A stretch of 46,617 bases of DNA from a virus (lineage: Duplodnaviria; Heunggongvirae; Uroviricota; Caudoviricetes): the IMG/VR virus record IMGVR_UViG_3300021600_000003, positions 83,249 to 129,865 of that record. One strand, written 5' to 3'. The notes under the pieces were generated by a model. That model did no database searches, was not told the DNA's origin, and worked only from the letters and a program-made list of their open reading frames with translations. A program made the position numbers and the translations under genes. Shown one piece after another: positions 3,877-22,772 of this stretch. Within the stretch, counting starts at the first letter, position 1. Each line of letters opens with the position of its first letter.

Positions 3877-4102
3877 CTAAGGTTAAACATACCAATGAGG
3901 TATATCCTCTCGAGAATGTTTTCAATTAAACCTTAACAAGCCTGTGGGGCTAGTATATCATTCATTATCTATAACTATGTAGGAATACGTAGGAGCTTTT
4001 GCAAGCTTTAAGATATGTAATTAACGTAAATATCCTTATCTACGTGATAAGAATAAAAATGCAATACGTAATGATAACTTAGTGCAGACGTAAAAATCAG
4101 GC
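3877..4102 (+). ncRNA. Hatchet-class self-cleaving ribozyme candidate with expanded L1 and P4
   Basis: P1 TAAGGTT/AACCTTA enclosing GAGAAT, then CAAG-CCTG-TGGGGC ... TTAGTGCAGACGTAAAAAT-CAGGC (P2 GCCTG/CAGGC). Matches the hatchet consensus as I recall it (GAGAAU; CAAA; UGUGGGGC; GUGCAGACGUUAAAA). Confidence 0.8.
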
Positions 4103-8828: not shown

Positions 8829-8853
8829 CATCTCATAATCAAAAACAATTATC

Positions 8854-10548
8854 ATGTTCTCAACAAAGAAAAAGACATTACACAGTAATCCAGCTTCAGC
8901 TGTTAAAGTGTCTGCAAAAAGTGCCTTTGTAACTGCAGGAATGAGGAAATCTGCACGTACATTATCAGGCAATGGAGCTTTAAAATTCTCTACAACAGGA
9001 AATTCCTTTGTAGATGAGTTTGGACAGGCTGGCTCGTTCAAAGCTCCTCGTGATTTCTCAACAATTACTAAAAGTATGACTACATTGTGGTCAGAAAGTC
9101 AGTTGTTGTGTATCAAATTTCTCTTCTATCTCCGTTTAATCACACGGAAAGTACAGTTTTCTGATGGAAACACAACAGAACATCCTCAAAGAGGACAAGG
9201 TTTACGTCATGAAGGGATTTTCAGGATGATGTGGCTTCACATCTATTATCCTACTGCCTTTTGGAATAACGTTCTACTATTCATCTCTGTAGGTTCATGG
9301 AAAGACATTTTCACGATGCTATCCTATGACTTACAGTATAATGGATGGAAGGATAGGAAATTGGATTGGAGCAAGTTAGGTATACTATTATTAGCCGGGC
9401 TTGAGAATCCTAAAACTACCAATTTGGTAAAGAAGTATCTTCCACAAATTAAGGCAAACTCTGCTTGTAAGACTGTTGAAGCACAAGCAGATAATATCAT
9501 TGCTAAGTGGATATGCTCCTTGTTATTTGGTGGTAAGGCAGAAGACAACTCTTCCTCTACCTACAGGAAATATCGTAAGCTGAAGACGTCAGGAACAGCT
9601 CATGAATGGCAAAAACTGATCAGTCAGAACAAAATGCTACAAATCAATTTTGATAATGTACATGGTAGAGCTTTGGCTCAGCTTGTGAGTGGTAAGTTTC
9701 TGAAAAATAACAATTTGGAAGGTAACTATACAAAATGGCTGGAAACAAAACCAGTTGTAAAGTATACGGGTTATGTTTACGAATTGTTAGCTACTATCCC
9801 TGCAGCAAAACAGAAGTATCAGGAAGATATTATTGTTAAGCAGTTTGGTACATTAGTAGAAACTGCTAAGAAAGGTGCTGTTGATGGTACATCCCTTATT
9901 GTTGTAAGAGATACATCTGGTAGTATGTCAAGTCCTGCTACAGGTACAAAGATATCTGCTGGAGATATTGCTAAAGGTTTAGCGTTATTCTTCAGTGAGA
10001 TGCTACCTGCTGGTAGATTTGCTGATAGTTGGATTGAATTCCACTCAACTGCAAAGATGCGTCAATGGCAAGGTAAGAATGTAGTTGAAAAATGGAGAAA
10101 TGATGGTTCTTCCTATGTAGGAGGTACTGATTTTCAAAGTGTTATCAAACTCTTCTGCAGTATTATGAAGGAAGGTGTTCCTGAAACTGAGTTCCCTACT
10201 GGTATTTTATGTATCAGTGATGGTGAATTTAATCCTGCTATGTTAGGTAAAACTAATGTAGATACTGCTCTTATCACTCTTACAAGAGGTGGATTTAGTA
10301 AAGGATATGTTGATAACTTTAAGATTGTCTTGTGGAACCTCCAGAGTGGTTACTATGGTAGAGATACTGGGAAGAAGTTTGAGACATATGGTGGTGTAAA
10401 GAACGTCTTCTACTTTAGTGGCTTGGATGGTAGTGTTGTGTCATTCTTAACAGGAATGGCTGATAATACCAAAAAGCTGCCTGAAACAGCAGAAGAACTG
10501 TTTGATGCAGCTATGAATCAGGAAGTTCTCAACATGATTGAGGTATAA
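8854..10548 (+). CDS. DUF2828-type protein with C-terminal vWA domain (TROVE/Ro60-like architecture)
   Basis: N-terminal SGNGALKFSTTGNSFVDEF; MIDAS motif VVRDTSGSMS; GGTDFQSV, ISDGEF and IVLWNL vWA elements. Confidence 0.8.
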   Translation: MFSTKKKTLHSNPASAVKVSAKSAFVTAGMRKSARTLSGNGALKFSTTGNSFVDEFGQAGSFKAPRDFSTITKSMTTLWSESQLLCIKFLFYLRLITRKVQFSDGNTTEHPQRGQGLRHEGIFRMMWLHIYYPTAFWNNVLLFISVGSWKDIFTMLSYDLQYNGWKDRKLDWSKLGILLLAGLENPKTTNLVKKYLPQIKANSACKTVEAQADNIIAKWICSLLFGGKAEDNSSSTYRKYRKLKTSGTAHEWQKLISQNKMLQINFDNVHGRALAQLVSGKFLKNNNLEGNYTKWLETKPVVKYTGYVYELLATIPAAKQKYQEDIIVKQFGTLVETAKKGAVDGTSLIVVRDTSGSMSSPATGTKISAGDIAKGLALFFSEMLPAGRFADSWIEFHSTAKMRQWQGKNVVEKWRNDGSSYVGGTDFQSVIKLFCSIMKEGVPETEFPTGILCISDGEFNPAMLGKTNVDTALITLTRGGFSKGYVDNFKIVLWNLQSGYYGRDTGKKFETYGGVKNVFYFSGLDGSVVSFLTGMADNTKKLPETAEELFDAAMNQEVLNMIEV

Positions 10549-11182: not shown

Positions 11183-11236
11183 CATTTATTTAACATATTA
11201 GATAGAGATTTTTTGTTTATTTTTCATTTTTATCTC

Positions 11237-11244
11237 TATCTTTG
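11237..11244 (+). promoter_or_regulatory. Bacteroidota -7 promoter box driving the hairpin array
   Basis: TATCTTTG matches the TAnnTTTG consensus; TTTG about 20 nt upstream. Confidence 0.65.
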
Positions 11245-11279
11245 ATATCCAATCATACTTAATACTGTGGTTGGGTAAA

Positions 11280-11607
11280 AGGATACATACAGCAACTATT
11301 TAAGCAATACACTTGTAATGTAAAACAGCTAAAAACTGTATCCTGATAAGAAGTCAGACAGCAAATACAAAAACAATTCTACTTTAAACAGGAACGACTC
11401 GAGTTCGACTCTCGAGACCTTAACAGAGGTGGAGTGGTCTGGAATATCTGTGACTTCTGATAAGAATAGCAACAGCAACTACAACAATTCTACTTTTAAT
11501 GGAAAACAAACGCTATTCTGATAAGATTACCAACAGCAACTAACTAAATTGCTAACCATATACTCTAGCGAGAAAAAATGGTAATCTGATAAGGACGCCT
11601 ACAGCAA
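11280..11607 (+). repeat. Tandem array of 4 hairpin units plus a partial 5th, with ACAGCAA / CTGATAAG motifs and anticodon stem-loop mimics
   Basis: Unit-specific closing stems AGGATAC/GTATCCT, AGAAGTCA/TGACTTCT, AGAATAGC/GCTATTCT, AGATTACC/GGTAATCT; ACAGCAA 5x; CTGATAAG 4x. Confidence 0.85.
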
Positions 11608-11634
11608 TTAAAAATGAGTATTGTAAAAATGTTA

Positions 11635-11663
11635 AAGAGCCCAGCTAATTACTGGGCTTTTTT
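11635..11663 (+). terminator. Intrinsic terminator closing the array transcript
   Basis: AGCCCAG-CTAATTA-CTGGGCT plus T-run. Confidence 0.8.
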
Positions 11664-22694: not shown

Positions 22695-22772
22695 TGGAGA
22701 CGGGAATGAGACTCGAACTCATGATCTCTAGGGTGGCGGCCCTAGTAACTTAACCAACTCGTCCATCCCGTC
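22695..22772 (-). tRNA. Atypical tRNA (Gly-GCC-like) with expanded anticodon loop; possibly a pseudo-tRNA
   Basis: Minus strand reads GACGGGA TG GACGAGTTGGTTAAGTT A CTAGG GCCGCCAC CCTAG AGATC ATGAG TTCGAGT CTCAT TCCCGTC T CCA. Confidence 0.75.

What the first reader, a model, noticed from the sequence alone, without database searches (positions are those of the whole stretch)
11280..11663. Promoter-to-terminator array of hairpin units carrying tRNA anticodon stem-loop mimics
Seen: after a TATCTTTG promoter box and a leader hairpin (11249-11274) come four units plus a partial fifth. Each has a different 7-8 bp closing stem, so structure is conserved while sequence is not. ACAGCAA follows each 5' strand and CTGATAAG spans each junction. 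The loops carry 7-nt anticodon-like loops: TACA-CTTGTAA-TGTA (Thr UGU, 11308-11322), TTCTA-CTTTTAA-TGGAA (Lys UUU, 11488-11504) and TTCTA-CTTTAAA-CAGGA (UUA, 11377-11393). Unit 4 has a weaker CAT-containing loop. A terminator closes the array. Established: tRNA-Lys(UUU) is the substrate of the anticodon nuclease PrrC, and phages counter tRNA-cleaving defences. Inference: the transcript is processed into a cassette of small RNAs acting as anticodon-nuclease decoys, RNA-repair substrates or Ro-bound Y-like RNAs. It is not CRISPR, because there is no constant repeat and the variable parts are structured.
Basis: partly seen in the sequence, partly recalled or inferred. Interest (0 to 1): 0.9.

Follow-up and report, generated by a model that had tools for sequence, protein, structure and literature searches.

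The report
Phage Ro60-like protein's partner RNA array
A lake-water phage makes a string of small hairpin RNAs that share one docking "handle" and display pieces of tRNA. The handle travels across phages with a ring-shaped Ro60-like protein, so the two probably form an undescribed RNA-protein particle, and the handle closely resembles an orphan RNA class of social amoebae.

Summary
The array is real: four complete units and a fifth half unit lie between a Bacteroidota-type promoter with a leader hairpin and an intrinsic terminator. Each unit has the layout UAAG, an 8-bp covarying helix, ACAGCAA, cargo, an A-rich strand, the helix 3' strand, then CUGA. A covariance model of this handle found 202 hits in 80 phage loci that were chosen only for a relative of the upstream 564-aa gene. 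All 202 hits lie on that gene's strand. Conversely, 10 of 10 records found only through the RNA pattern encode that protein. The protein (DUF2828/DUF7788) is predicted to fold like Ro60 (TROVE ring plus vWA). Long units in relatives carry YrlA-like permuted tRNA modules. Short units are strongly enriched for anticodon-like 7-nt loops (68 of 177, against about 5 expected), with Lys-UUU commonest. In 14 of 42 relatives the handle engulfs the protein's own start codon. Best reading: these are Y-RNA-like partner RNAs of a phage Ro60-like protein that display tRNA parts. The anticodon-nuclease decoy idea is untested. Short units also match the Dictyostelium Class I RNA model below threshold, with the same AAG/ACAGCAA/CUG layout. 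This scan has met the system before in 124 or more other genomes; I found no publication describing it.

The parts
8854..10548 (+). Gene for the 564-aa Ro60-like protein (P0001; DUF7788, family DUF2828; PHROG 850 'RNA-binding protein'), the proposed protein partner of the array
   Evidence: Pfam DUF7788 at 4e-9. Homologs carry PF11443 plus PF25043. PHROG 850 at 2.5e-25. The AF2 model has pLDDT 85, and its top 13 PDB matches are all Ro60/TROVE. It is the only copy in the genome.
11212..11244 (+). Bacteroidota-type promoter candidate: TTTG, 21 nt, TATCTTTG
   Evidence: Pattern match. The same TTTG...TAnnTTTG layout lies upstream of 23 of 157 array starts, against 6% of background windows. Function is inferred.
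11246..11277 (+). Leader hairpin at the likely 5' end of the transcript
   Evidence: Fold of -14.7 kcal/mol, z -3.5, 0 of 200 shuffles as good.
11278..11346 (+). Unit 1: handle plus a cargo with a short AGC/GCU helix and an anticodon-arm-like hairpin (4 bp, loop CUUGUAA, Thr-UGU-like)
   Evidence: R1 66.1 bits, E 1e-12. Rfam RF01414 20.8 bits. The cargo design recurs in L100, L005, L047, L075, L065 and L019.
11347..11460 (+). Unit 2: handle plus a reduced, permuted tRNA-like module. It has a hairpin with a CUUUAAA loop, a T-arm (CTCGAG / TTCGACT / CTCGAG), a 3-bp closed acceptor-like stem and a D-loop-like GUGGUCUGGAAUAUC
   Evidence: Fold. Same class in L201, L138 and L020, with a covarying T-arm. 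The 5' handle is found by R1.
11461..11521 (+). Unit 3: handle plus a weak U-rich/A-rich hairpin. Alternative readings are a Lys-UUU-like loop CUUUUAA or an AAUGG loop
   Evidence: R1 53.3 bits. RF01414 21.6 bits. The minimum-energy fold shows only the handle helix. Relatives are L075, L105, L120, L135 and L146.
11522..11589 (+). Unit 4: handle plus non-tRNA-like cargo (small hairpins)
   Evidence: R1 55.2 bits. RF01414 26.2 bits, E 0.011. Fold z -3.75.
11590..11633 (+). Unit 5, incomplete: UAAG-GACGCCU-ACAGCAA with no 3' closing strand. Probably a decayed unit
   Evidence: Read from the sequence. Not found by R1.
11634..11663 (+). Intrinsic terminator hairpin (core GCCCAG/CUGGGC) followed by U6
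   Evidence: 11-bp hairpin in the fold. Not listed by the simple scanner, probably because A-U pairs extend the stem into the T run.

Best explanation
The array encodes Y-RNA-like partner RNAs of the phage's own Ro60-like protein (P0001, DUF2828/DUF7788), whose gene lies 730 nt upstream.

A precursor of about 400 nt runs from its own promoter to the terminator (inferred). Each unit folds so that its ends form an 8-bp helix capped by an A/G juxtaposition. Next to the helix lie single-stranded ACAGCAA and an A-rich 3' strand. This 'handle' is the docking site for the ring-shaped protein (inferred from co-occurrence, not shown).

Units are probably released at the 4-nt single-stranded linker, CUGA|UAAG (inferred).

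The variable cargo protrudes and presents tRNA parts. In this window that is an anticodon-arm look-alike (U1, perhaps U3) and a T-arm/elbow module (U2). These would tether the particle to tRNA-recognising host or phage proteins, or sequester those proteins (inferred).

In many relatives the same handle encloses the protein's start codon. This suggests the protein also represses its own translation. That element is degenerate in this window.
For: 1. Forward co-occurrence. Eighty loci were chosen only by the protein. Handle model R1 gave 202 hits at E<=0.01 in about 71 of them, all on the protein's strand. A regex finder gave 327 units on that strand against 27 on the other, in 72 of 79 loci.
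2. Reverse co-occurrence. Ten of 10 records found only by the RNA pattern encode the protein. So do the multi-copy loci.
3. In this genome there is one such gene and one array.
4. No other neighbouring gene is conserved with them.
5. Protein fold. The AF2 model has pLDDT 85 and pTM 0.86. Its top 13 PDB hits are Ro60/TROVE, including phage phiLo Ro60 and Deinococcus Rsr (probability 0.99-1.0, TM 0.27-0.59). The Swiss-Prot models give Ro60 of worm, frog, mouse, human and Deinococcus. The MIDAS residues D353, S355 and S357 are invariant.
6. Long units in relatives match the tRNA-like part of Rfam YrlA at 25-38 bits.
7. Handle helix covariation is 0.83 against 0.20, 0/500 shuffles.
8. The handle lies over the start codon in 14 of 42 distinct gene starts, against 4 of 16,371 control ATGs.
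9. Precedent. Ro60 genes sit next to their Y RNAs on the same strand (PMC4201824). Phage phiLo Ro60 binds two phage-encoded Y-like RNAs (PMC12135203).
Against: No binding, expression or processing data exist, and no RNA-seq run holding this sequence was available.

The handle lacks the known Ro-binding motifs (GNCGAA(N)G or GGUCCGA). The Rfam YrlA and Class I models score below their thresholds.

The protein matches Ro60 only at fold level (9-14% identity, no Pfam TROVE hit).

In this window two small ORFs separate the gene from the array, and the array has its own promoter, so co-expression is not guaranteed. The start-codon handle is missing here.

About 9 of 80 protein loci showed no unit, though several of those are cut by contig ends.
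Confidence: 0.75

Rival explanations
1. The units are free-standing anticodon-nuclease decoys. The anticodon-arm look-alikes soak up tRNA-cleaving defence enzymes (PrrC, RloC or PARIS type), and the Ro60-like protein is not needed.
For: Anticodon-like 7-nt loops are strongly enriched in short units: 68 of 177 against 5.0 +/- 2.2 in shuffles. Lys-UUU (CUUUUAA) is the commonest, and tRNA-Lys(UUU) is the known PrrC and PARIS target (established knowledge). In one clade the Ro60-like gene sits among NAD-salvage genes, a family I recall (not checked here) as used for phage counter-defence.
Against: Only 21% of non-redundant units have a strict anticodon-like loop. An equal share carry T-arms, and most carry neither. 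This reading does not explain the invariant handle, its tie to the protein, or its presence over the protein's start codon. In this window only U1 is a clear case.
Confidence: 0.1
2. The handle is only an RNA processing or stability signal, read by a host RNase, that punctuates a polycistronic small-RNA precursor. The link to the DUF2828 gene reflects shared operon history rather than binding.
For: The junction spacing is constant (8 nt), with a 4-nt single-stranded linker between helices. tRNA-like punctuation elements were noted elsewhere in this genome by an earlier agent (e1-1863884; not tested here).
Against: A pure cleavage signal would not need seven invariant single-stranded bases inside the helix. 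It would not be expected over the start codon of the one co-occurring protein. The same handle occurs on single, non-arrayed units in relatives.
Confidence: 0.07
3. The handle is a small self-cleaving ribozyme that cuts the precursor at CUGA|UAAG.
For: The conserved unpaired bases flank a helix exactly at unit borders. The same genome carries a hatchet ribozyme, and a relative has a sub-threshold twister-like hit.
Against: No Rfam ribozyme family matches the units even at E<=10. By eye, the CUGAUAAG junction differs from the hammerhead core CUGAUGA as I recall it. The conserved core is very small.
Confidence: 0.04

Closest known systems
Ro60 (Rsr, TROVE + vWA) with Y RNAs. This covers bacterial and phage YrlA/YrlB (Rfam RF02553; Chen et al. 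2014, PMC4201824) and Thermus phage phiLo Ro60 with Yrl1/Yrl2 (PMC12135203).
   Same: A ring-plus-vWA protein, at fold level, is encoded next to small RNAs on the same strand. The ends of those RNAs form a stem beside a conserved single-stranded motif in a large internal loop. Some of the RNAs carry a permuted tRNA-like domain (T-arm, closed acceptor, D-arm). More than one RNA accompanies each protein.
   Different: The protein belongs to Pfam DUF2828/DUF7788, not TROVE, with 9-14% identity to Ro60. The RNA motif is ACAGCAA with AAG/CUG ends instead of GNCGAA(N)G. Units are tandem, 1-10 per locus in the non-redundant count, with fixed 8-nt junctions. Cargo includes anticodon-arm look-alikes. 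The handle is reused over the protein's start codon. Rfam YrlA scores 25-38 bits against a threshold of 69.
Class I RNAs of dictyostelid social amoebae (Rfam RF01414; Kjellin et al. 2021, PMC7919456)
   Same: The layout matches from end to end: start (A)AG, a short terminal helix of variable sequence in which that G pairs with the C of the 3' CUG, then ...ACAGCAA next to the 5' strand, a variable middle, an A-rich stretch, and the end CUG(U). Length is 42-65 nt against 49-70 nt for the short phage units. RF01414 is the best Rfam family for the short units. The 3 hits in the window and 8 in relatives all lie inside arrays and on the array strand.
   Different: The phage units are tandem, in a bacterial virus, and lack the DUSE promoter. 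Only 7 of the 11 motif positions are shared. The helix is 8 bp rather than 6 bp. Scores of 21-34 bits fall below the threshold of 41.5. The published partner is the RRM protein Rnp1A, and the class is reported as unique to Dictyostelia. Common descent is not shown.
Tandem small-RNA arrays of defence or counter-defence systems: CRISPR arrays and type III toxin-antitoxin ToxI repeats
   Same: A promoter, then tandem units with a conserved junction, then a terminator.
   Different: There is no constant repeat of CRISPR length. The variable parts are structured and conserved across phages. The units are not near-identical. No cas gene or ToxN-like gene is nearby.

Membership tests
Y RNA / YrlA (RF02553) | Encoded within a few kb of a Ro60 ortholog, on the same strand | tested here: met
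   The array lies 730 nt downstream of the Ro60-like gene on the same strand. There were 202 of 202 model hits on the protein strand in 80 loci. The protein is Ro60-like by fold only.
Y RNA / YrlA (RF02553) | Terminal stem with the Ro-binding motif GNCGAA(N)G or GGUCCGA | tested here: not met
   The conserved motif is ACAGCAA. The outer stems of the YrlA model mispair in the alignment.
Y RNA / YrlA (RF02553) | tRNA-like domain (T-arm, closed acceptor stem, D-arm) | tested here: met
   The window's U2 has a T-arm, a 3-bp closed stem and a D-loop-like segment. Long units of relatives match the YrlA core.
Y RNA / YrlA (RF02553) | Reaches the Rfam gathering score (69 bits) | tested here: not met
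   Relatives score 24.6-37.9 bits. There was no YrlA hit in the window even at E<=10.
Y RNA / YrlA (RF02553) | Physically bound by the Ro60-type protein | not testable with these tools
   This needs a gel shift, RNA immunoprecipitation or a solved structure.
Dictyostelid Class I RNA (RF01414) | Conserved ends, (A)AG at the 5' end and CUG(U) at the 3' end, flanking a short variable terminal helix | tested here: met
   Columns A2, A3 and G4, and C83, U84 and G85, are invariant or nearly so. The helix covaries.
Dictyostelid Class I RNA (RF01414) | 11-nt motif CCUUACAGCAA next to the 5' strand. Positions 3, 6, 9, 10 and 11 are near-invariant across Dictyostelia | tested here: inconclusive
   ACAGCAA (positions 5-11) is conserved, including C6, C9, A10 and A11. 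Positions 1-4 fall in the variable helix, and the helix-to-motif spacing is one base shorter than in the Dictyostelium model.
Dictyostelid Class I RNA (RF01414) | Reaches the Rfam gathering score (41.5 bits) | tested here: not met
   The window scores 20.8-26.2 bits and relatives up to 34.1 bits.
Dictyostelid Class I RNA (RF01414) | Single genes with a DUSE promoter about 60 nt upstream, in dictyostelid genomes | tested here: not met
   Here the units form a tandem array in a phage, behind a Bacteroidota-type promoter.
Ro60 / TROVE protein (for P0001) | HEAT-repeat ring followed by a vWA domain with a MIDAS motif | tested here: met
   Full-length Foldseek matches to Ro60 structures. The DxSxS residues are invariant. 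An ESM Atlas cluster mixes TROVE, DUF2828 and DUF7788.
Ro60 / TROVE protein (for P0001) | Sequence match to Pfam TROVE (PF05731) or to solved Ro60 chains | tested here: not met
   Pfam lists only DUF7788, even at E<=10. There was no PDB sequence hit.
tRNA | Cloverleaf recognised by ARAGORN or Rfam RF00005 | tested here: not met
   No tRNA call falls in 11278-11663.
CRISPR array | Constant direct repeats separating unstructured unique spacers, usually with cas genes nearby | tested here: not met
   Only 15 fixed bases are split around a variable 7-mer that pairs with the previous unit's partner. The cargo classes are conserved across phages.

The most novel reading that the evidence does not exclude
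The phage handle RNAs and the dictyostelid Class I RNAs are one RNA class, related by descent or by strict convergence. Their ligand is a TROVE-superfamily (DUF2828-type) protein. The phage arrays would then point to the missing kind of partner, and a testable function, for an abundant amoebal RNA class thought unique to Dictyostelia. In phages, the particle would use displayed anticodon arms and tRNA elbows to capture or disarm tRNA-targeting host enzymes.
Probability: 0.2. Interest if true: 0.9.

Novelty: new variant of a known kind. Interest (0 to 1): 0.72.

Why it matters
Ro60/Y-RNA particles are known from animals, some bacteria and a few phages, but their function remains hard to pin down.

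This finding points to a much larger phage-borne branch. More than 2,400 protein relatives appeared in one search. The branch has its own RNA docking motif, tandem multi-RNA arrays and modular tRNA-part cargo. The likely autoregulatory copy of the handle on the protein's mRNA gives a ready genetic test.

It assigns a concrete candidate function to DUF2828/DUF7788, a domain family for which I found no functional literature and whose fold relatives in AlphaFold DB include an entry named 'Plant/T31B5-30 protein'.

It also gives the first outside relative, or look-alike, of Dictyostelium Class I RNAs, whose mechanism has been open since 2004.

If the displayed anticodon arms engage tRNA-cleaving defences, this would be a new counter-defence principle.

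Tried and rejected
- BLAST of the array and of 12 kb around it against GenBank phages gave no match.
- Rfam at gathering thresholds found nothing in the array. ARAGORN made no call there.
- A PDB sequence search with the protein gave only a chance hit.
- Sequencing runs: two lake-water DNA data sets hold the stretch and no RNA holder is listed. Expression and processing could therefore not be examined, and read laying was not used.
- RNA-repair genes in this genome: no RtcB and no Rnl2-type ligase. The T4 Rnl1 search is uninformative because its control found nothing anywhere. Pnkp/Hen1 were not searched.
- The simple terminator scanner did not list the terminator, although the fold shows it.
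- Whether Dictyostelium encodes a DUF2828/DUF7788 protein could not be settled. Organism names are masked in the AlphaFold cluster search. Swiss-Prot models gave only Ro60 and telomerase p80. Avesson et al. 2011, which lists the four Class I RNA-binding proteins, is not held.
- A hammerhead reading of CUGAUAAG was rejected by eye from my recollection of the core: the junction has A where I recall the core's G8, and no GAAA follows the helix.
- Permuted functional tRNA genes needing ligation were rejected. The tRNA-like modules follow the YrlA layout (closed acceptor stem), and the genome has no ligase.
- ToxI-like antitoxin and CRISPR readings were rejected (see membership tests).

Full report
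**The observation**

CTGATAAG-N7-ACAGCAA occurs exactly four times, at 11343, 11457, 11518 and 11586 on the + strand. Only 0.19 matches are expected by chance. The pattern occurs nowhere else in the 129,865-base virus record that holds the window.

This gives four complete units: U1 11278-11346, U2 11347-11460, U3 11461-11521 and U4 11522-11589. A fifth stretch has the 5' half of a unit but no closing strand. It runs into a hairpin plus U6, which is a typical intrinsic terminator.

Upstream lies TTTG-21 nt-TATCTTTG (11212-11244), the layout of Bacteroidota promoters. A stable leader hairpin follows at 11246-11277 (z -3.5).

**The handle**

I aligned 46 short units from this window and many unrelated phage contigs (alignment A2). 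The conserved frame is U-A-A-G, six to seven variable bases, ACAGCAA, cargo, an A-rich stretch, the complementary variable bases, then C-U-G-A.

The terminal helix is 8 bp and includes the conserved AG and CU.
- 92% of cells are paired.
- All pairs show double changes.
- The covariation score is 0.83, against 0.20 in shuffles (0/500) and 0.06-0.14 with slid partners.
- RNAalifold predicts the same eight pairs on its own.
- The near-invariant A3-U84 and G4-C83 pairs switch together (AA..UU four times, GG..CC twice). My unit finder did not force that combination.

A2 and G85 are invariant and face each other at the helix end. The 8-nt junction therefore divides into CUGA|UAAG. Only GAUA is left unpaired between neighbouring helices, which makes it a natural cleavage point. 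That is an inference.

**What travels with the handle**

The ORF 730 nt upstream (8854-10548, P0001) matches Pfam DUF7788. Its relatives carry DUF2828 plus DUF7788, and more than 2,400 relatives appeared in one search. It also matches PHROG 850, annotated 'RNA-binding protein'.

An AlphaFold model (pLDDT 85, pTM 0.86) matches Ro60 structures over its full length.
- The top 13 PDB hits are all Ro60/TROVE entries. They include frog and human Ro60, Deinococcus Rsr and Thermus phage phiLo Ro60.
- Ro60 proteins lead the Swiss-Prot models.
- The vWA MIDAS residues are invariant.
- Sequence methods do not see TROVE.

I fetched 80 viral loci solely by similarity to this protein. I then searched them with covariance model R1, built from the handle.
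- There were 202 hits at E<=0.01, in about 71 of the 80 loci.
- All 202 lie on the protein's strand, mostly just downstream of the gene and sometimes just upstream.
- A cruder regex finder gave 327 units on the protein strand against 27 on the other.

The reverse test agrees. Ten of ten virus records that I had found only through the RNA pattern encode the protein, as do the multi-copy loci inspected first. No other neighbouring gene family is shared across the loci. This genome has one such gene and one array.

**The handle on the protein's own mRNA**

Some R1 hits begin 4 nt before the protein's start codon. In these genes the sequence reads AAG-AUGUUYR-ACAGCAA ... ACAUCUG. The AUG therefore sits inside the handle helix, and the first codons (M-F-N/D-S-K) spell the motif.

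A full handle of this kind is present at 14 of 42 distinct gene starts, against 4 of 16,371 other ATGs in the same loci. Genes that lack the upstream AAG almost always lack the motif too.

The simplest reading is that the protein binds the handle and represses its own translation. This is an inference, and the element is degenerate in this window.

**The cargo**

Rfam, searched without thresholds, gives two recurring sub-threshold families inside the arrays and nowhere else in the loci scanned.
- Long units match YrlA (RF02553, 25-38 bits, threshold 69). The match covers the T-arm, closed acceptor stem and D-arm, and not the Ro-binding stems.
- Short units match Dictyostelium Class I RNA (RF01414, 21-34 bits, threshold 41.5).

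Among 177 non-redundant short units, 68 hold a hairpin with a 7-nt loop of the anticodon pattern (pyrimidine-U-NNN-purine). Shuffled cargo gives 5.0 +/- 2.2, with a maximum of 12 in 200 shuffles.
- The commonest loops are CUUUUAA (14), CUUGUAA (4), and CUGAUAA, CUCUUAA and CUCGUAA (3 each).
- Long units are dominated by T-loops.
- Among 193 non-redundant units (protein-anchored loci plus this window), 43 carry a T-arm and 40 a strict anticodon-like loop.

In this window:
- U1 belongs to the clear anticodon-arm class (Thr-UGU-like).
- U2 is a reduced permuted tRNA-like module whose relatives show a covarying T-arm.
- U3 is ambiguous between a Lys-UUU-like loop and a U-run/A-run hairpin.
- U4 is not tRNA-like.

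**Interpretation**

The closest known system is Ro60 with Y RNAs. Bacterial and phage Y RNAs are encoded beside Ro60 on the same strand and often mimic tRNA (PMC4201824). Phage phiLo Ro60 binds two phage Y-like RNAs and can assemble with host PNPase (PMC12135203).

The present system shares that logic. It differs in protein family, in the RNA docking motif, in tandem organisation, in displaying anticodon arms, and in the start-codon copy of the handle. I therefore read it as a new variant of the Ro/Y-RNA kind, not as a member of the YrlA family.

The RNA-repair idea has no support in this genome.

**The Dictyostelium likeness**

Kjellin et al. describe Class I RNAs as follows: they start AAG, have a short variable terminal stem, then CCUUACAGCAA, a variable middle, and end CUGU. 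They are 42-65 nt long and reported as unique to Dictyostelia.

The phage handle has the same order, the same G-C closing pair and the same ACAGCAA. Three window units and eight in relatives hit the Rfam model, always on the array strand. Both genomes are A/T-rich, which inflates such scores, and the scores are below threshold. I therefore treat this as a strong resemblance, not membership.

I could not determine whether dictyostelids encode a DUF2828-type protein.

**Context and prior notes**

The DNA comes from lake-water metagenomes. The promoter type suggests a Bacteroidota host.

After I had reached the reading above, the scan's own index showed that the same protein-plus-ACAGCAA-handle pairing has been noted in at least 124 other genomes. 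Earlier agents gave the same interpretation, also noted the Class I likeness, and also found no publication. My searches for DUF2828, DUF7788 and related identifiers found no functional paper.

Noticed in passing
window 3918-4102 (+): Hatchet self-cleaving ribozyme above the Rfam gathering score (55.4 bits against 51).
   Followed up: no
window 22698-22772 (-): A tRNA gene lies on the strand opposite to the window's run of + strand ORFs (Rfam tRNA, 49 bits). ARAGORN cannot name an anticodon: by eye the anticodon stem looks like 6 bp closing a 6-nt loop. CCA is encoded.
   Followed up: partly
L135:5997-6059, L125:5997-6062, L133:5997-6056, L160:5997-6065, L075:5866-5928 and others: In relatives, the start codon of the Ro60-like gene lies inside a complete ACAGCAA handle (14 of 42 distinct gene starts against 4 of 16,371 control ATGs). 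This is probably autogenous translational control. The element is degenerate at window 8850-8900.
   Followed up: yes
L197:8740-10224, L156:4163-4744, L156:6230-7000, L182:3318-3776: In one clade the Ro60-like gene is flanked by NAD-salvage genes (NAMPT/NAPRTase, isochorismatase-type nicotinamidase, NAD synthase) and a nucleoside deoxyribosyltransferase. I recall NAD salvage being reported as a phage counter-defence route; I did not check that here.
   Followed up: partly
own genome G000:C1:55250-57613 (-): A cluster of 12 ordinary tRNA genes includes Thr(UGU) but no Lys. The anticodon arm of the phage's own tRNA-Thr differs from the Thr-like arm displayed in unit 1.
   Followed up: partly
L019:202-311 (+): One handle unit encloses an almost complete tRNA-Ile(GAU)-like sequence (D-arm, anticodon arm, T-arm) with a poor acceptor stem. 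Cargo therefore ranges from single tRNA arms to near-whole tRNAs.
   Followed up: no
L005:2047-2112 (-); L037:1-337 (-): A sub-threshold twister-P1 ribozyme hit (59.5 bits against 67.2) lies about 2.7 kb from one array. A tmRNA hit (52 bits, cut by the contig end) lies on the array's strand about 760 nt beyond another array.
   Followed up: no
window 11590-11633 (+): The fifth unit keeps UAAG-N7-ACAGCAA but has lost its 3' closing strand and runs straight into the terminator. I saw no such half unit at the end of the other arrays I read.
   Followed up: partly
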